Part shown: positions 50,311 to 58,509 of the stretch, piece by piece
Layout: every line of letters begins with the position of its first letter
How positions within the stretch are numbered: position 1 is the first letter of the stretch
NCBI GenBank assembly: GCA_963815455.1
Contig: CAWFGO010000003.1
Span: 733,782 to 797,781, forward strand
Reading direction: 5' to 3'
Length of the DNA: 64,000 bases
Origin: an uncultured Verrucomicrobiae bacterium
Lineage (GTDB): Bacteria > Verrucomicrobiota > Verrucomicrobiia > Chthoniobacterales > UBA10450
Program-made: the position numbers and the translations under genes
The notes under the pieces: model-generated
The model's database searches: none
Told to the model about the DNA's origin: nothing
What the model saw: the letters and a program-made list of their open reading frames with translations, nothing else

Positions 50311-50433
50311 TGTAGCGGCGGTCTCCGACCGTCGATCTCTTGATCTGTAGGGGAAGCTGACACCTTCCCGTCGTTTCGCCCCTGTAGCGGCGGTCTGCCT
50401 GTCGCGCTGTAGCGGCGGTCTCCCGACCGTCGA
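50311..50433. repeat. Cluster of GTAG REP-like repeats (TGTAGCGGCGGTCT..GACCGTCG)
   Basis: Copies near 50311, 50383 and 50408; another at 50853-50878; related elements at 40071-40138, 48259-48375, 48780-48880 and 62800-62862. Confidence 0.75.
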
Positions 50434-50605: not shown

Positions 50606-50928
50606 GTCCAGGTGCAGGCCGGAACCTTCCAGGCCTGGGCCCAAGCCCCTCAAATTCAGAGCCCATCCGTTCAGCACAATGGCTAAGTCGTTCAGCCTCA
50701 ATCCTCTCAACCAAAAACGCTCAACCACTTCCTCTCCCTCAACACTCACTGCTCTCCTGTCATCCCGTCGCAGACTCGCCGTGGCGAGAGCGAAGTCGAA
50801 GGATCTCAGTCTATTTTTTTCCTCGCTCATCACAAACCGCTTCCGGAATCGCTGTAGCGGCGGTCTGCGACCGTCGAATATTTCTCAGTTCCTCGAATCC
50901 TTGCCTTCCGGTAACGGATTTGGCATAA

Positions 50929-51958
50929 ATGGCAATCGTGCCGCCGTCCACTGCCACCGTCGCTTCCTCGCCCAAGTTGCTCGACCGCGTTCGCTGGCAA
51001 CTGCGAGTAAAACACTACAGCATTCGTACGGAACAAGCCTACGTAGATTGGATCCGTCGTTACATTCTCTTTCATGGCAAACGCCATCCCGGTGAAATGG
51101 GAGAAGAACAAATCACTCAATTCCTTACCCATCTCGCGGTCGATAAGCACGTCGCAGCTTCCACCCAGAACCAGGCCTTTAGCGCGTTGCTGTTTCTCTA
51201 TCAGCAGGTGCTCGAACGAAAACTCGATTTTATTGATGATGTTCAGCGGGTTAAGCGACCGGCAAAGCTCCCGGTGGTGTTCACCCGGGCGGAAGCTCGC
51301 GATGTGCTTGGGCAACTCAAAGGGGAATACCGCCTGATGGGTGAACTATTGTACGGCGCCGGGCTGCGCCTGATGGAGTGTGTTCGATTGCGCGTCAAAG
51401 ACATCGACTTTGGTTACGGGCATATTCTTGTCCGCGATGGTAAAGGCTTGCGCGATCGCATTACCGTCCTGCCCGAGCGTCTGCGTCGCCCGCTCCAAGT
51501 GCATCTGGAGCGGATCCAGGAGAAGCACGACCGAGACCTGGCCAAGGGTCGCGGGCGGGTTTACCTCCCCTTTGCCCTGGAACGCAAGGTACCGCAACGC
51601 CAATCGTTCCTGGGTATGGCAATATGTATTTCCGGCCGATAAATTGTCGATCGACCCGCGTTCGGGAGAACTGCGTCGGCATCATGTGTTAGAAAAGAAT
51701 CTGCAAAAAGCGGTCAAGATTGCCATCGAGCGAGCGGCCATCAAGAAGGCGGGCAGCTGCCATACCTTTCGGCATAGTTTTGCTACGCATTTACTGGAAA
51801 ATGGCCAGGATATTCGTACTGTGCAGGCATTGCTCGGGCACAAAGACGTATCCACCACCATGATATATACCCATGTCCTAAATAAACCCGGATTGGGTGT
51901 GAGAAGCCCCTTGGACTACGATGCCCCTCCTATGGAAACCCAACCCCGCTCGAAATAG
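50929..51958 (+). CDS. intI: Integron integrase; one extra base near 51588
   Basis: [32 protein letters not shown], the IntI-specific insert [11 protein letters not shown]...[16 protein letters not shown] and [13 protein letters not shown]. Confidence 0.96.
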
Positions 51959-51990
51959 GTGAACAATTGTTCCTCTACTTCTCGTTAGGT
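51959..51990 (+). other. Putative attI / first crossover site (GTTAGGT at 51984-51990)
   Basis: GTTAGGTCTT is the exact complement of AAGACCTAAC at the end of cassette 1, and no attC left arm lies upstream. Confidence 0.65.
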
Positions 51991-51991
51991 C

Positions 51992-52369
51992 TTGAATCTC
52001 CTCGTTCCAGTTATCATTGGGATCGCCGTTGGGCTGCTATTTGCAGTGAGGCGCGGAGCGAAGGCCCGCGACATAGCGCGTTCGCTTTCGCCGGCAGACC
52101 GCCAGTTCATCGCCGATCAGATCGAGCCAATCACGAAGCTGCCACTCAACACAGCTGCAGACGAGGACGCTTGGTTAGCCGCTACACGAGCGGTGATGCA
52201 GCGTTTCAAGGAACGTTTCCCCGATGTTGCTTCGGTTGTGCCTGAGCAGGTATATCACTATTTCGACGATGCGGACATTCACCGGAAAGAGCCGTCATAT
52301 CGCGTTGCCCGCGAGGCACGCATTCTTGAGTTCATTAGATTACTTCGTGAAGAGCCCGCAAAGACCTAA
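51992..52369 (+). CDS. Cassette 1: membrane-anchored hypothetical protein
   Basis: Fills the cassette; its stop TAA lies in the attC1 inverse core. Confidence 0.8.
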   Translation: MNLLVPVIIGIAVGLLFAVRRGAKARDIARSLSPADRQFIADQIEPITKLPLNTAADEDAWLAATRAVMQRFKERFPDVASVVPEQVYHYFDDADIHRKEPSYRVAREARILEFIRLLREEPAKT

Positions 52370-52487
52370 CCAATCGCTCCAGCCAACCGCTGGCCGTTCT
52401 GATGAGTAGCTTTTCCATGACTTCAACATTAAACTCCGCGGCAAAGCTCGCTATCGCCAGCGGTGGCTGAGCTTTTTCTCGTTAGGT
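52364..52487 (+). other. attC1 (124 bp)
   Basis: ACCTAAC...GTTAGGT with paired arms CAGCCAACCGCTGGC / GCCAGCGGTGGCTG. Confidence 0.93.
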
Positions 52488-52489
52488 CT

Positions 52490-53032
52490 ATGCAAGCAAC
52501 ACTCTTCGTCACCCTCATCATCGCAGCACTGCTCAAGTACGCGTGCGCCCAAACCGTCGTGGGCGATGACAGATTGCCGCCGGACAGCATCGAGTTGAAG
52601 CGAAATGATCCGCCAGCGACATCCACACCTTGGCAGTTACCGAAGCCAGGCGATCCTCATTACGACGCCGCAAAAGAAGCGGAGATAAAGAGAGAAAACG
52701 AACACAAAGATAAAGCTGTTACCCATCATCTCGTGCGCACATACGAGCGTGGCGTATTCAAAGGTTATGACACGCTTCAGTGGGGGGAACCTGCAAAGAA
52801 GATGGATGACCCGTTCACTCCAAATCCCAAGCTGCCCCCGGACGCAGTCGAGATTTCCTCAGCCGCACATCCAGACAAATCAGACTACTTTCCCAGTCGT
52901 CCAGAGAAGCGCCCTTGGAACGTTCCAGATGACTTCATCGCTGTGCGAGTTTTTCACCGCGGCAAACTGATTGGTTGGACTTTCATGCCGAAGGACGCAG
53001 TAGCCATGTTGCACAAACCGAAGAAGACCTAA
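52490..53032 (+). CDS. Cassette 2: secreted hypothetical protein
   Basis: Signal peptide; stop codon lies in the attC2 inverse core. Confidence 0.8.
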   Translation: MQATLFVTLIIAALLKYACAQTVVGDDRLPPDSIELKRNDPPATSTPWQLPKPGDPHYDAAKEAEIKRENEHKDKAVTHHLVRTYERGVFKGYDTLQWGEPAKKMDDPFTPNPKLPPDAVEISSAAHPDKSDYFPSRPEKRPWNVPDDFIAVRVFHRGKLIGWTFMPKDAVAMLHKPKKT

Positions 53033-53150
53033 CCAATCAGTCGAGCTAACCGCCACCCGCTGTGCGATCCCTTTTTGATATGACCAGAACATCTTCACTT
53101 CGAGCACCGCTCGCCCTCGGTGGCGGTAGCTCACTTCTGTCTCGTTAGAC
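53027..53150 (+). other. attC2 (124 bp)
   Basis: ACCTAAC...GTTAGAC with arms GAGCTAACCGCCACC / GGTGGCGGTAGCTC. Confidence 0.93.
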
Positions 53151-53159
53151 GGATTAGCG

Positions 53160-53594
53160 ATGCGCTTCTCTAGCTTCACACTCTTCCTGACGGCCAGTCT
53201 AGCGTTTGGCACTGCATTGCGCGCGGGCGAGCCAGAGTGGCGTTTGACCAATCCAGCATACCTTTACCTTGAGGTTCACTATCAGGGCATCCCGGACAGC
53301 GCGCTTACTTGGCTCCAGCCGGCACGGAAGCGCGAGGGAGAATTTTGCGAAGCAATCGCACCAAATCAAACTGAGCCGGCGAAAGCGTTTAGTTTCTCAT
53401 TCCAGCGAGACACTCGGCAGGGTTACGAAGTAGTCTTCCGACCGATCGATCCCCAGTCACTGCTAGAGCATCACCCGGTCGACGGACCGGTTTCTACCGT
53501 TATTTTCCCGCGCTCGGAACGGAAACGTGTGCAAATAACGCCGAAGCTGTTTGTTGTTGGGTTTTACGGCGATCCGAAACTCGCGGGACATTGA
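53160..53594 (+). CDS. Cassette 3: secreted hypothetical protein
   Basis: Signal peptide (…TALRA|GE); fills the cassette. Confidence 0.8.
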   Translation: MRFSSFTLFLTASLAFGTALRAGEPEWRLTNPAYLYLEVHYQGIPDSALTWLQPARKREGEFCEAIAPNQTEPAKAFSFSFQRDTRQGYEVVFRPIDPQSLLEHHPVDGPVSTVIFPRSERKRVQITPKLFVVGFYGDPKLAGH

Positions 53595-53610
53595 CTGTGG
53601 AAGAAAATCC

Positions 53611-53715
53611 GTCTAACCAGGCGCTGCAGCCAACGGCGACCGCTCGTTTGCCACACTTTAGACCAATGAACATTTGCTCTCGCCCGCGCCGTGGCTGAGC
53701 TTGAGCTCGTTAGAT
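53611..53715 (+). other. attC3 (105 bp)
   Basis: GTCTAAC...GTTAGAT with arms CAGCCAACGGCG / CGCCGTGGCTG. Confidence 0.92.
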
Positions 53716-53725
53716 CTTATCGCTC

Positions 53726-54403
53726 ATGCTGCTTCCGGTGATCCTCGCCTCCGTATCAGCGATGTCGTATCCGCCCGAGGGCTACGCACGCGAAGAGAGC
53801 TTTGACGCGCCGAAGCACACTTTTAAGGTCGAAAGCTGGCGCAAAGGCGATCAGGATCCCGGTGCTGCTTTGTGCGTCTGGATTGTTACGCCCGACAAGA
53901 CCAAAGCAGAACTACTAGTTGCACCCGGTGTGCTTACTCCCCTTTATTCCGTTCAGATTCACATATCGCCCGACGAGCACTGGATACTCTGGGAGGAGAA
54001 GCTTTATCATCCCGCAGACGCCTTTGGACTTTTCGAAAGAGTATCAGGCATCCACTTCCATGAAGTGGGGCCGCCCATTTTTAGCGAGCAGGCGTGGCAG
54101 TTCATGGGCCGTCAGACCCATCACAACTTCAAACTGGAAGATACTGACCACATTATGCGTGTTAGCGAGTGGCCCACTCCCGGAACGCGAGTTCGTCACC
54201 TAGCGCTCTACGGCGATTCGCAGCTTACACCCGTCACTACTCCCAATGATCATTCCTTGGCTATCTCTTTGTACGGCGATGACGGGACGATTCACGTCGA
54301 TCTGTGGTTCTGTTTCTACGATCTCGTGAAGCATCGCTTCTACTTGAACTCAGCACTCGAGAACCATAACAAAGGGAGAATTGGCCGGTCTCGTGAAAGG
54401 TGA
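53726..54403 (+). CDS. Cassette 4: probable secreted hypothetical protein
   Basis: 225-aa ORF that fills the cassette. Confidence 0.8.
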   Translation: MLLPVILASVSAMSYPPEGYAREESFDAPKHTFKVESWRKGDQDPGAALCVWIVTPDKTKAELLVAPGVLTPLYSVQIHISPDEHWILWEEKLYHPADAFGLFERVSGIHFHEVGPPIFSEQAWQFMGRQTHHNFKLEDTDHIMRVSEWPTPGTRVRHLALYGDSQLTPVTTPNDHSLAISLYGDDGTIHVDLWFCFYDLVKHRFYLNSALENHNKGRIGRSRER

Positions 54404-54404
54404 G

Positions 54405-54528
54405 ATCTAACCATGCGATGGAGCGAACGGCGGACCGCGGTACGTCCACATTTTGAGATGACTTCCACCCTTCCACTCCGAGCGACACGCGCCCTCGTCC
54501 GCCGTCGCTCATCTTGTTCTCGTTAGGC
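54405..54528 (+). other. attC4 (124 bp)
   Basis: ATCTAAC...GTTAGGC; nearly identical to attC5 and attC7. Confidence 0.94.
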
Positions 54529-54530
54529 CC

Positions 54531-55057
54531 ATGACCGCGCTTCACGTCTCAAACTGCCGCCGTGGCAGCCGCGGAAGCCATCATGGCTGGCTGTCGTGAC
54601 CGTATGCGCCGGCACTGTCGTCTTTTGGGCGTCGCATCTTATTGTCCCCGCGGTGGTTTTCAGCGTCTTGGCTGGTTTATGTTTCCTCGGGCTTTCTCCT
54701 GAGCCGTGACAGATTCCACGGCGGCAGGCCCTCGCCGCGCAACAGCCGCGACGCGGTGTGCACCTTCGCTCGTTCATTCGAGTTCCGCCAGACCGACACT
54801 TTCATCATGCGCGCTGTGTATGAGGAGCTTCAGCCGGTTGTATCCTTTCCCATTCGAGCATCGCACCGACTCATCGAAGACTTGCAGTCGACGATGAGGA
54901 CCTGCACTTCGACTACCTTCCCTCGATCGCGGCGAGGGTTGGCCGAGCACCCACCCACACCGAACAGAATCCGTACAACGGCCGGGTGGAGACCGTGGCC
55001 GATCTGATCCATTTCATGGCCGCACAACCAACGCATGAGACCACGCAAATGGCCTAA
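54531..55057 (+). CDS. Cassette 5: membrane hypothetical protein with several frameshifts
   Basis: Fragments in different frames: TM segment, CTFARSFE.RQTDT.IMRAVYEELQ and NPYNGRVETVADLIHF; ends at TAA in attC5. Confidence 0.65.
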
Positions 55058-55175
55058 CCATGCGATGGAGCGAACGGCGGACCGCTGTACGCTCCACTTT
55101 TGAGATGACTTCCACCCTTCCACTCCGAGCGACGCACGCCCTCGTCCGCCGTCGCTCATCTTGTTCTCGTTAGGT
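55052..55175 (+). other. attC5 (124 bp)
   Basis: GCCTAAC...GTTAGGT. Confidence 0.94.
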
Positions 55176-55979: not shown

Positions 55980-56102
55980 ACCTAACCACGCGCTGGAGCG
56001 AACCGGCAGCTGGCGCGAAGCTTAGTTTCAGATGATTAGAACAGTGATATTACAAGCAAAGCTCGGCGACGCTGCCGGTCGCTCAGCTTTGTCTCGTTAG
56101 GT
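55980..56102 (+). other. attC6 (123 bp)
   Basis: ACCTAAC...GTTAGGT with arms GAGCGAACCGGCAGC / GCTGCCGGTCGCTC. Confidence 0.93.
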
Positions 56103-56411: not shown

Positions 56412-56537
56412 GATTGATCGCCGAACATCTAACCATGCGATGGAGCGCCTATGAGGGTTGTCAACCGTGGAACGGGTATTGTTTGTTTTTCTTTAGTTTT
56501 TTCCTTTCCCGGTTTTTCCAATCTTTAGTGGTTTGAT

Positions 56538-56740
56538 CCGCAGGGTGCAGCTTCCCTCTGTCGTGTTGTCTCGCCGGGGCGAGTCAACAGCTCCTATTCG
56601 AGCATCGCTTTTGTTGTGCGAGCCCATGATGTCGTGCCTGACTTTGGGAAGCCGCTTTGGGCGGAACGCGCCCCATCTAAGCGATGATCCCTTCGTTTCA
56701 AAGGACCAGCTCCAGCGCCGAGCAGCGTTCCACCCTGCGG
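56538..56740 (-). ncRNA. Predicted bridge/seek RNA of the IS1111 element
   Basis: 10-bp closing stem CCGCAGGGTG/CACCCTGCGG. An internal loop carries GCGCTGGAGC (attC match); ATAGGAG matches the predicted circle junction. Folded by eye. Confidence 0.7.
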
Positions 56741-56799
56741 CCAAATCAAACTTTGCTTGGAAGTTCCGTTTCGTAAAAGCTGAGGGTTAAATCTGTTTG

Positions 56800-57921
56800 T
56801 TAGGGTTTCACCTGGGATGTAGACAGGCTCCAGCCCAGTTCGGCGGCACTGGCCCGGCCGGTTCGCCAGCGCCAGATGTCTATGGCGAGTTGCCGGGCCA
56901 GGGCCACTGCGATTTTCTTTTTCAGCGAGGCGCCGTGCCTTAATTTCTCCAGATATTTCTGACGAGCATGCCAATTAGGCTGCCAGCGAAGAAGTCGCCA
57001 GACCGCCTCGACCAGGAGCGTGCGCAAATGTTTGTTGCCGTGCCGGTCGATGCTTCCAAAACGCTGGATCCCGGCTGAACTGTATTCGCTAGGACAACAC
57101 CCAGTGTAACTGCCCACGGCTTTGCGATGCTTGAAGCGTTGCCAATCGCACACCTCCCCGTCGATCAGCGATACCGTTAGCGCACCCAATCCCGTCGGGA
57201 TTTTTTCTTCCCTCACCAGCGCTTCAATCTCCTGGGTCAACCGATCCAATTGCGCTTTGGCCGCTCGGATCTGTTCCATGACCGGTTCAAGCTGCCCGCG
57301 CACAAACTCGCTGCACTGCGGCCCGATTCGTTTCCACTTCCGCGGTCCGCCCCACCCAGCCTCCAGCGTCTCATGCTCGTGCTCGATCCGCAGCGCACGC
57401 CCGTGATTCTCCAGCCGCCGCACTTGGCGTTTCCAAAACTCCCGCTGCCGCCCCAGCTCCCGCCGTTGTTGCTCCGCCCGGCTCGGGATTCGGATTGGTC
57501 TTAATTCCTCTCTCTGCCCATCCAGGTAACGGCTCAATCGCACACACAACTCGCGCGCATCCATCCGGTCGTTCTTCCGCCGCCGCTCCAAATTTAATCG
57601 CATCGGGGTCGTCCCGACGCTCTTTGCTCCCGCTTGAGTTAATTGCTCGTGCAACGTGTACCCAAATCCGCAGCATTCCCACACCGCGTAGACCACATCG
57701 CCTACACCCACTTTTTGCTTCACCCACTCGAGCAACTGCTCGCGAGTATACTTCCGCGCCGGCCCAATCGTTCCCCGCCCACACTGGATCGCCACCACCA
57801 TAAAACGCAGGTCCACGTCCAGCCCAAGCTTCCACACCCGCCTCACTGCCCCATTGCCAGGGGCGCTTGAATTGTTAAACTTCTCTCCGCCATGAAGGGT
57901 TGTTGTTGTTTTGTTTTTCAT
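56800..57921 (-). CDS. IS110-family DEDD transposase/recombinase
   Basis: LGLDVD, ECCGFG, KNDRMDA and YTGCCPSEYSSAG...GNKHLRTLLVEA. Confidence 0.95.
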   Translation of the reverse strand: MKNKTTTTLHGGEKFNNSSAPGNGAVRRVWKLGLDVDLRFMVVAIQCGRGTIGPARKYTREQLLEWVKQKVGVGDVVYAVWECCGFGYTLHEQLTQAGAKSVGTTPMRLNLERRRKNDRMDARELCVRLSRYLDGQREELRPIRIPSRAEQQRRELGRQREFWKRQVRRLENHGRALRIEHEHETLEAGWGGPRKWKRIGPQCSEFVRGQLEPVMEQIRAAKAQLDRLTQEIEALVREEKIPTGLGALTVSLIDGEVCDWQRFKHRKAVGSYTGCCPSEYSSAGIQRFGSIDRHGNKHLRTLLVEAVWRLLRWQPNWHARQKYLEKLRHGASLKKKIAVALARQLAIDIWRWRTGRASAAELGWSLSTSQVKP

Positions 57922-58078
57922 ACAACGCGTGTGCCCGTTTTGCCCACGCTTTTCAACCCTTCATGGCATCTAACGGCGGACCGTTGTACGCTCCACTCTT
58001 GATATGACTTCCACACTTCAACTCCGAGCGCCGCGCCCCCTCCTCCGCCGTCGCTCATCTTGTTCTCGTTAGATCTCG

Positions 58079-58390
58079 ATGCGCCTTCCCAGATTTCGAT
58101 ACGTCATTCTGCTGGCGATTATTGTCGGTGCAGTTTTGCCGGTGCTTATCATGGTCGGACTTTGGCTGCACATTTTTAGCTTCGCTGGAGAGCGACTGTT
58201 CTACTTTTGGCCTAGTTCGGTCCTGCTGATGGCCATGGAGCCGGGTCACACGGCTCAGGTTTTCAGCGTGCTTGGCTTGAGCATTGCGATCAATGTTTTG
58301 CTGTATCTCGTTGTCCTTACAGTGTTCTGGAGCTTCTGGTGGATTTTCCATCGATGGCGCGCTTCGTTGCGTGATGGAACAACGATCTAA
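58079..58390 (+). CDS. Cassette 8: small membrane protein
   Basis: Hydrophobic ORF; its stop lies in the attC8 inverse core. Confidence 0.78.
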   Translation: MRLPRFRYVILLAIIVGAVLPVLIMVGLWLHIFSFAGERLFYFWPSSVLLMAMEPGHTAQVFSVLGLSIAINVLLYLVVLTVFWSFWWIFHRWRASLRDGTTI

Positions 58391-58509
58391 CCAATCAGTC
58401 GAGCTAACCGCCACCCGCCGTACGCTCCGCGCGACAACATGACTACTGACCACCGACTACGGACCACGCTCGCTCTCGGCGGCGGTCGCTCAGCTTGTTC
58501 TCGTTAGAT
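58385..58509 (+). other. attC8 (125 bp)
   Basis: ATCTAAC...GTTAGAT; the left arm is nearly identical to attC2. Confidence 0.93.

What the first reader, a model, noticed from the sequence alone, without database searches (positions are those of the whole stretch)
56448..56799. IS1111 non-coding end folds into a bridge/seek RNA whose loop matches this integron's attC
Seen (minus strand, folded by eye): an outer 10-bp stem (56731-56740 / 56538-56547). One arm, closed by GGAACGC/GCGTTCC, has a symmetric internal loop of about 11 nt per side. Its 5' side GCGCTGGAGC (56709-56718) matches the left arm of attC6 10/10, and matches attC4, 5 and 7 9/10, ending 1 nt from the insertion point. Its 3' side TCGCTTAGATG (56674-56684) resembles the attC right arm TCGCTCAG. 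A second domain has ATAGGAG (56591-56597), identical to the predicted circle junction ATAGG|AG. Established: IS110/IS1111 recombinases are guided by RNA from their non-coding end, and an IS1111-attC group exists. Inference: if both loop sides copy the top strand of opposite attC arms, the target is the folded bottom-strand hairpin that IntI also uses, not linear duplex DNA. The 3' side is ambiguous, since TCGCT also complements AGCGA across the insertion site.
Basis: partly seen in the sequence, partly recalled or inferred. Interest (0 to 1): 0.82.

Follow-up and report, generated by a model that had tools for sequence, protein, structure and literature searches.

The report
Guide RNA of integron-targeting jumping gene

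Summary
The 352-base end of a 1,524-bp IS110/IS1111-type element folds into a two-domain RNA (z −4.1; 14 of 29 stem pairs show compensatory changes in 31 relatives). The 5' side of the target loop tracks the attC left arm across relatives (position 5: 36 of 39 clusters, about 15 expected).

The hairpin inference is not supported. The 3' side is complementary to the linear flank across the cut (position 13: 34 of 43 clusters, about 21 expected), then to the element's own end. This is IS621's right guide, CT core and handshake bases, read on the opposite strand. All regular junctions sit in the left arm and keep top-strand letters, whereas IntI uses the bottom strand.

seekRNAs of attC-targeting IS (ISKpn4, ISPst6) are published, and this scan noted the kind in other genomes. 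This lineage is divergent, cuts 8 bases further along attC and tolerates C-N cores.

Open: it prefers attC more than its guide explains (3 of 6 perfect attC sites used, 0 of 20 perfect other sites, most inside genes). Expression was not shown.

The parts
56448..57971 (-). Insertion sequence, 1,524 bp, IS110 family with IS1111-type layout, no target duplication
   Evidence: Ends set by comparison with empty attC4/5 and sister copies; 5 copies in the genome at 96.8-100% identity
56800..57921 (-). DEDD recombinase/transposase, 373 aa; D35, E82, D118, D121 and S281/S282 assigned by motif (inference)
   Evidence: NCBIfam NF033542 162 bits, cut-off 140; PF02371 57.7 bits; PF01548 19.4 bits, below its cut-off of 29; motif positions
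56538..56740 (-). Predicted bridge/seek RNA core, 203 nt, closed by a 10-bp outer stem
   Evidence: true RNA ends unknown
56663..56731 (-). Target-binding domain: closing stem, internal loop, inner hairpin
   Evidence: Both helices have 4 pairs with both-side changes in 31 relatives
56708..56717 (-). [quoted passage not shown]
   Evidence: 497 of 528 matches at positions 1-8 over 66 junctions, permuted mean 436
56674..56683 (-). Right target guide (positions 14-10) + core AG + handshake AU(G); pairs with the top strand beyond the cut and, after exchange, with the element's own left end
   Evidence: 245 of 305 matches at positions 10-14 over 61 junctions, permuted mean 230; pairs at positions 5-9 rise from 2 to 5 after exchange
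56627..56635 (-). Probable left donor guide (6 of 9 identical to the donor; CATC run)
   Evidence: five relatives read CATCT, the exact donor run; weakest of the four guides
56588..56597 (-). Right donor guide ATAGG + core AG + handshake CU
   Evidence: Pairs with donor 8-14 7/7; reads ATAGC in distant elements whose end is CATAGC
56451..56460 (-). Right subterminal inverted repeat, 3 bases from the end
   Evidence: Sequence
57954..57964 (-). Left subterminal inverted repeat, 7 bases from the end; differs from the right one by one inserted A
   Evidence: Sequence
56459..56464 (-). -35 hexamer TTGACA of a predicted circle-junction promoter; 17 bases on, across the junction, a weak -10 (57960-57965)
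   Evidence: TTGACA in 76 of 76 right ends found, but four of its bases were in my search anchor; promoter is inference
56427..56447 (+). Left part of the interrupted attC (R'' box, spacer, L'' box up to position 9)
57972..58074 (+). Right part of the interrupted attC (AAC, stem, L' and R' boxes)
   Evidence: the rejoined site folds like attC5 and attC6
55982..56100 (+). attC6, an empty site with a perfect left-guide match
52366..55173 (+). attC1-5 (52366, 53029, 53613, 54407, 55054) and their cassettes
   Evidence: attC8 lies at 58387-58507
50929..51958 (+). Integron integrase, split by a frameshift, same orientation as the cassettes
   Evidence: TIGR02249 on both pieces; ORFs

Best explanation
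The downstream non-coding end encodes a four-guide bridge (long seek) RNA for the element's own DEDD recombinase, and the target is the linear duplex of the attC left arm.

Read on the attC top strand (antiparallel to the transposase gene), the RNA fits IS621 numbering. The 5' side of loop 1 pairs with the bottom strand of target 1-9, and the 3' side with the top strand of target 10-14. Loop 2 reads the joined ends of the circular element.

The enzyme cuts the top strands after position 9 and swaps them. The bases next to the core (AU in loop 1, CU in loop 2) then pair with the incoming partner, 2 Watson-Crick pairs before exchange and 4 after, which favours insertion. Products keep top-strand letters.

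Shown here: sequence, fold, covariation, junction position. Inferred from IS621/ISEc11 work: transcription from a circle-junction promoter, protein binding, the cutting chemistry.
For: Left guide and left target change together in five forms (GCTGGAG, GCTGCAG, GATGAAG, GCCGGAG, GATGGAG): position 5 matches in 36 of 39 clusters (null 14.8), position 2 in 34 of 39 (null 24.2), p<=0.005 in all 200 draws.

Right guide and the linear flank change together: position 13 in 34 of 43 clusters (null 20.8); one lineage changes U to C and its flanks A to G at position 10 (L048-L052).

Distant elements (34-36% identity) keep the four guides with other targets and a changed donor end: G054 (4 copies), G294, G096, G077. 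One relative sits in the 3' end of a tRNA-Asn gene with a perfect left-guide match and no attC (L067). In this genome 3 of 6 attC with a perfect guide match are occupied, against 1 of 58 others (p=0.002). Donor letters CT stand at 61 of 61 donor-target junctions although target position 9 is T in only 6 of 66.

IS621 chemistry: PMC11208158; top-strand-dominant integration: bioRxiv 10.1101/2025.10.25.684509.
Against: No expression or binding data. In the window's own copy the right guide pairs with only 3 of target positions 10-14. At position 12 the RNA mismatches an invariant C in 24 of 61 junctions, and that variant recurs on the tree (about 10 changes). The left donor guide is only 6 of 9.

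Positions 5-9 of the 369/451 score are nearly invariant and lay in my search anchor. The cluster permutation on the 41-locus subset does not separate the two registers (p 0.030 and 0.033); only the one-per-cluster tests do. L008 has a changed left end without a change in the handshake bases. The attC preference exceeds what the guide explains. Relatives are kin and metagenome flanks can be chimeric.
Confidence: 0.85

Rival explanations
1. One reading: both loop sides copy the top strand of opposite attC arms, so the RNA pairs with the folded bottom-strand hairpin that IntI uses.
For: In this copy the 3' side matches the right arm 7-8 of 11 by inspection. The CGCUU variant matches the arm's invariant C where the linear register mismatches (21 of 41). 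Nearly all junctions are in attC (51 of 65 left flanks have the R'' box, most others look like worn attC).
Against: 242/451 against 369/451, with two loop positions 0 of 41. No covariation in this register. In the alternative hairpin register the base after position 10 matches 0 of 41 and position 13 shows no association (16 of 43, p 0.58). Junctions lie in the left arm at 9/10 and keep top-strand letters; the strand paired with the 3' guide is the one cut there in IS621, and a bottom-strand hairpin does not contain it. L067 is not in an attC.
Confidence: 0.04
2. Add-on to the best explanation: the RNA pairs with both strands of the left arm, but the tendency of attC to extrude or melt is needed to open the duplex, so a guide match is necessary but not sufficient.
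For: 0 of 20 perfect non-attC sites are used against 3 of 6 perfect attC (p=0.008). One unused site (G000 C2:627389) matches both guides fully. Position 12 is C in 61 of 61 junctions even where the guide predicts G. IS621 needed mismatched substrates for a stable complex in vitro (PMC11208158).
Against: 18 of the 20 unused sites lie in ORFs of 150 aa or more, so selection against gene disruption can explain it. If the extra C at position 0 is required only 8 sites remain (p about 0.055, by hand from the list). Four insertions are few, and attC sites are the commonest match once AAC is required (17 of 20).
Confidence: 0.2
3. The 3' side (GUUAGAUG) recognises the attC core boxes R'' or R' (CTAAC / GTTAG) some way from the cut.
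For: The motif equals the R-box sequence at this very site (56426-56433).
Against: The bases beside the R boxes vary among targets (GAT, GGT, GGC, GAC) while the RNA's AGAUG and the element's left end are constant. The same AG-AU/AG-AA layout occurs in elements that do not target attC.
Confidence: 0.03
4. The fold and matches are chance; targeting is by the protein alone.
For: A 10-nt match alone arises in 21 of 300 shuffles; no Rfam hit.
Against: Compensatory stem changes and guide-target covariation; the same region is essential in IS1111 elements (PMC11187229).
Confidence: 0.02

Closest known systems
seekRNA of the attC-targeting IS1111 elements ISKpn4, ISPst6, ISPa25 (Siddiquee et al. 2024, PMC11187229; parts 1, 2, 3, 5 of 9 read, supplement passages; figures not seen)
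   Same: RNA from the end downstream of tnp; top-strand complement 5' of the bottom-strand match (element orientation); 7 and 3 base terminal extensions; attC target; same orientation.
   Different: The cut lies 8 bases further along attC when aligned on CTAAC (targets from Table 1 of review PMC13604230). Transposase of 373 aa whose top-ranked plasmid matches are 25-29% identical. A donor loop and handshake bases are readable here; the parts of that paper I read describe target matches only.
IS621 bridge RNA (Durrant et al. 2024, PMC11208160, passages; Hiraizumi et al. 2024, PMC11208158, passages and sections 12-13; PMC13626964, passages)
   Same: Two loops, four guides, cut at 9/10, donor with AT at 6-7 and CT at 8-9, AU handshake in the target loop, short natural right guide, more handshake pairs after exchange than before.
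   Different: The RNA lies downstream of tnp and reads target and donor on the opposite strand. The donor guides sit in a multi-branch domain (as Durrant et al. note for IS1111). Target position 9 is free (T in 6 of 66) whereas IS621's T is almost invariant.
IS1111-attC group (Tetu and Holmes 2008; Post and Hall 2009; seen only as reference-list entries, text not held)
   Same: Site- and orientation-specific insertion into the left arm of attC.
   Different: Other position and, by indirect evidence, another lineage: probably a separate arrival at attC.
Integron integrase recognition of the folded attC bottom strand (established knowledge, recalled)
   Same: Same DNA site; products may likewise be finished by replication of one exchanged strand (inference).
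   Different: The strand whose letters survive here is the top strand, and recognition is by RNA pairing to sequence.

Membership tests
IS110 family (RNA-guided DEDD recombinases) | Family model above cut-off | tested here: met
   NF033542 162.2 bits vs 140; PF02371 57.7 vs 21.3; PF01548 only 19.4 vs 29
IS110 family (RNA-guided DEDD recombinases) | DEDD residues and C-terminal serine motif | tested here: met
   GLDVD, WEC, KNDRMD and CCPSEYSSAG present; assigned by motif, no structure was predicted
IS110 family (RNA-guided DEDD recombinases) | Circular intermediate | not testable with these tools
   0 circle-type junctions in 124 loci and 7 contigs; assemblies would rarely keep them
IS1111 group | Long non-coding region downstream of tnp | tested here: met
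   352 bases downstream, 50 upstream
IS1111 group | Terminal extensions of 7 and 3 bases, no target duplication | tested here: met
IS1111 group | Subterminal inverted repeats of 11-13 bp, near perfect | tested here: inconclusive
   10-11 bases with one inserted base
IS1111 group | Transposase in the IS1111 clade (330-350 aa, related over full length) | tested here: inconclusive
   373 aa; 24% to IS4321/IS5075, 28% to ISEc45 family; no tree with named members was built
IS1111-attC group | Inserts in attC, one orientation | tested here: met
   4 of 4 complete copies in this genome; 51 of 65 left flanks carry the R'' box
IS1111-attC group | Same position in attC as ISKpn4/ISPst6/ISPa25 | tested here: not met
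   After the 19th base from CTAAC here, after the 11th in the published targets
IS1111-attC group | Transposase related to TnpKpn4/TnpPa25 | not tested
   No direct comparison was made; indirectly, all 5000 best plasmid records are under 60% and the 15 top-ranked 25-29%
Bridge RNA (IS621 type) | Target loop pairing with both target strands, covarying | tested here: met
Bridge RNA (IS621 type) | Donor loop pairing with both donor strands | tested here: inconclusive
   Right donor guide 7/7 and covaries in distant elements; left donor guide 6 of 9
Bridge RNA (IS621 type) | Shared CT core in donor and target | tested here: not met
   Donor CT in 61 of 61; target C at 8 in 64 of 66 but T at 9 in 6 of 66. 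Distant relatives G054, G294, G096 do have CT targets
Bridge RNA (IS621 type) | Handshake bases pairing with positions 6-7 of the other DNA | tested here: met
   4 of 4 pairs after exchange, 2 of 4 before; first donor-loop handshake base is C against target G7 here and G against C7 in G054, G294, G096
Bridge RNA (IS621 type) | RNA expressed, bound by the recombinase, required for movement | not testable with these tools
   Needs bench work

The most novel reading that the evidence does not exclude
An RNA-guided recombinase that needs a structural cue as well as a guide match. It pairs with both strands of the attC left arm but only where the palindrome helps the duplex open, exchanges the top strand only (the strand IntI leaves alone), and is finished by replication. 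That would explain the free core position 9, the tolerated mismatch at position 12 and the unused perfect sites outside attC. It would answer why IS110/IS1111 elements so often end up in palindromes (attC, REP).
Probability: 0.2. Interest if true: 0.7.

Novelty: new member of a known kind. Interest (0 to 1): 0.36.

Why it matters
As it stands it is a well-supported new lineage of a mechanism published in 2024, with three useful extras.

(1) About 85 natural loci give guide-target covariation indicating that an IS1111-type RNA uses the IS621 register, handshake bases included, when read on the opposite strand. The 'reversed order' of seekRNA matches then looks like a matter of orientation. I did not find handshake pairing stated for IS1111-type elements in the passages read (searches), though Durrant et al. 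already assign four guides to IS1111 members.

(2) Junctions keep top-strand letters at mismatched core positions in 61 of 62 cases, natural evidence bearing on the dispute between Holliday-junction resolution and top-strand-only integration.

(3) The element disables attC sites in soil Verrucomicrobia integrons, retunes its guide to attC subtypes, and accepts C-N cores, which would widen target choice if the enzyme were used as a tool.

Tried and rejected
Rfam: only a tRNA in the window. Viral contigs: no relative. PDB by sequence: no match at E 0.001. Circle junctions: 0 hits.

My first two extractions by pattern missed 30 of 93 loci and were replaced by an alignment. The strict attC right-arm call gave 40 of 66 but missed plainly attC-like arms, so I do not use that ratio as an off-target rate. 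Most of the 14 left flanks without an R'' box may be worn attC sites; only L067 (tRNA-Asn) is counted as clearly outside attC. The cluster permutation is confounded by cluster size on the 41-locus subset and was replaced by one-per-cluster draws. One search had one helix entered one column off and is superseded.

Rows dropped: L010 (partial); 6 of 93 loci without the anchor (five end within about 120 bases of tnp, L060 does not); L094 (5' loop side deleted) and L002 (odd junctions); one extra C of L005 was trimmed; L061, L068 and L078 were left out of the arm set as doubtful calls. Only 80 of 115 metagenome hits were returned.

Tetu and Holmes 2008 is not held. A search for IS110 + bridge recombinase + cruciform gave 0 papers. 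Figures of PMC11187229 and its supplement file 5, Extended Data Fig. 10c of PMC11208160, and the preprint's supplements were not seen; they may already show the pairing register for ISKpn4 or ISPa11.

Full report
VERDICT. The proposal that it pairs with the folded attC bottom strand is not supported: relatives indicate a four-guide bridge RNA that reads the linear duplex. New member of a known kind, interest 0.36.

1. THE OBSERVATION. The coordinates are exact. The element spans 56448-57971 on the minus strand, 1,524 bp, and interrupts the seventh of eight attC sites of an integron array whose integrase is split by a frameshift. The transposase passes NF033542 (162 bits, cut-off 140). The downstream end folds far better than its shuffles (z -4.06; core z -5.54). 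In 31 relatives chosen at under 90% identity, 14 of 29 stem pairs show both-side changes and 97.8% of cells pair, against 32-51% in slid controls (the structure was taken from the consensus of that alignment). The 10-base match to attC6 is not remarkable alone: 21 of 300 shuffles equal it.

2. RELATIVES. The genome holds 5 copies; the 4 complete ones all lie in attC at the same position. Ten loci came from GTDB genomes, titled Verrucomicrobia or Limisphaerales, and 80 of 115 hits from metagenomes. Of 93 loci examined, 87 held the RNA core; 85 were counted, in 46 clusters at 95%. I number target and donor 1-14 on the attC top strand, as for IS621, with the junction between 9 and 10.

3. LEFT GUIDE. 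It occurs as GCTGGAG, GCTGCAG, GATGAAG, GCCGGAG and GATGGAG, and the left flank follows. Positions 1-8 match in 497 of 528 cells over 66 junctions; permuted mean 436, 0 of 5000 as high. With one junction per cluster, position 5 matches in 36 of 39 (null 14.8) and position 2 in 34 of 39 (null 24.2); these positions change about 10 and 5 times on a rough tree. Within the genome 3 of 6 attC with a perfect match are occupied and 1 of 58 others (p=0.002).

4. THE 3' SIDE DECIDES. Its reverse complement reads CATCT, the element's own left end, followed by five bases that follow the flank across the cut: AACCG, AACGG, AACAG, GACCG. Positions 10-14 match in 245 of 305 cells (null 230). Position 13 matches in 34 of 43 clusters (null 20.8, p<=0.005). 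Positions 5-9 are nearly invariant and were in my anchor, and the cluster permutation does not separate the registers on that subset (p 0.030 and 0.033), so the per-cluster tests carry the weight.

Because attC is a palindrome, position 13 is mirrored in the right arm, so two further points matter. First, the hairpin's partner strand lacks one base of the AA at 10-11 (unpaired in the fold), yet the RNA has a partner for it; without a bulge that register gives 0 of 41. Second, IS621 cuts the strand paired with the right guide at 9/10 (PMC11208158). All regular junctions here are at 9/10 of the left arm with target letters at 6-9, which needs the top strand of the left arm; a bottom-strand hairpin does not contain it. 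One relative lies in the CCA end of a tRNA-Asn gene with a perfect left-guide match (L067; its other flank is not assembled).

5. DONOR LOOP AND HANDSHAKE. ATAGG-AG pairs with donor 8-14 fully; the probable left donor guide matches 6 of 9. The two bases after AG in each loop pair with positions 7 and 6 of the other DNA: 2 of 4 before exchange, 4 of 4 after, like IS621's 1 and 3 (PMC13626964). Distant elements (34-36% identity) support the assignments. In G054, G294 and G096 the end reads CATAGC and the guide ATAGC, the left guide spells a non-attC target 8-9 of 9, and the first handshake base is G against target C7 where here it is C against G7. Against this: L008 has a changed left end with unchanged handshake bases, and the second handshake base often fails in the distant elements.

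6. MECHANISM. Inferred from the family: the element circularises, and a junction promoter (TTGACA, 17 bases, weak -10) drives tnp and the RNA. The enzyme-RNA complex opens the left arm of an attC, cuts the top strands after position 9 and exchanges them. The target core is C-N (T in 6 of 66) while the donor's CT stands at 61 of 61 donor-target junctions. Mismatched overlap is thus resolved in favour of the top strand, as expected from biased repair (PMC11208158) or top-strand-only integration (bioRxiv 10.1101/2025.10.25.684509, abstract and passages). L002 is the exception: one junction crosses over near 5/6 and the other has lost 6-9, where IS621 cuts bottom strands; one case, in an assembled genome. 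The insertion separates R''/L'' from L'/R' and should inactivate the attC (inference).

7. WHAT REMAINS OPEN. The attC bias exceeds the guide. In this genome 20 perfect non-attC sites are unused against 3 of 6 attC (p=0.008), but 18 of the 20 are in long ORFs. Position 12 is C in all 61 junctions, though the RNA predicts G in 24, and this RNA variant recurs. Selection against gene disruption, or help from attC extrusion in opening the duplex, could explain this; I give the second 0.2.

8. COMPARISON. seekRNAs of attC-targeting ISKpn4 and ISPst6 were purified and matched to both target strands in 2024 (PMC11187229, parts 1-3 and 5 of 9). Durrant et al. predict bridge RNAs in the right end of 93% of IS1111 elements, with donor guides in a multi-loop (PMC11208160, passages). 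The published attC targets are cut 8 bases nearer R'' (review PMC13604230, Table 1). This transposase is 25-29% identical to the top-ranked plasmid matches; a direct comparison with TnpKpn4 or TnpPa25 was not made. So it works like an IS621/IS1111 guide system, has IS1111 layout, and is not a member of the IS1111-attC group by insertion position. Read the same way, the published ISKpn4, ISPa25 and ISPa11 targets have CG at 8-9, so a non-CT target core is not unique to this lineage. Searches for a hairpin-target claim or IS1111 handshake pairing returned none in the passages read; figures and most subscription papers were not visible. This scan has notes on attC-targeting guide RNAs in other genomes; none for this sequence. 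IntI's use of the bottom strand and the attC box names are recalled, not from a call.

Noticed in passing
G000 C1:1713600-1715200: A second, 37% identical IS110-type element sits in an attC at the same position; its left guide reads TCTGCAG against target GCTGCAG. Its left end begins GG rather than AG, as if the target's core had been copied in.
   Followed up: partly
G000 C1:1479900-1480500: A truncated third element whose left guide spells the attC R'' box (GTCTAACC) and whose right end abuts that box: a third cut position within attC for this clade.
   Followed up: partly
window 50929-51958: Integron integrase is frameshifted near 51590 and points the same way as the cassettes, directly ahead of an attI-like site near 51960-51990.
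   Followed up: partly
G000 whole genome: About 60 empty attC-like sites in at least eight arrays on C1, C2 and C3, with several L'' subtypes; the commonest unmatched subtypes (GCTCGAGC, GCTCCAGC, AGTCGAGC) carry no copy of this element.
   Followed up: partly
G000 C1:1710970 copy: The host attC is a hybrid: its first 22 bases beyond the cut equal those of the window's copy, then it turns into another attC type. Co-transfer of flank, recombination between copies or misassembly.
   Followed up: no
L092, L100, L101, L105, L106: Near-identical elements share one flank and differ in the other; assembly chimeras, or one-ended transfer as described for CazIS110-1.
   Followed up: no
window 57965-57974: The element's left end plus the target's AAC recreates an R''-like box (ATCTAAC), the same as the true R'' at 56427-56433; it has no L'' partner.
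   Followed up: no
L002 1460-1480 and 2970-2995: Odd junction pair: crossover near 5/6 on one side, loss of positions 6-9 on the other.
   Followed up: partly
L067 1991-2064: A relative inserted in the 3' end of a tRNA-Asn gene, within the CCA triplet.
   Followed up: yes
L007 1445-1531 and 3561-3647: Two left ends of the element within 2.2 kb; the flank of the first has no attC right arm.
   Followed up: no
window 50316-50420 and 50850-50878: A motif beginning TGTAGCGGCGGTCT is repeated four times upstream of the integrase; possibly a REP-like repeat.
   Followed up: no
G000 C6:21548-23064: A fifth copy at a contig end repeats the window's flank with many single-base gaps; probably a duplicate assembly of the same locus.
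   Followed up: partly
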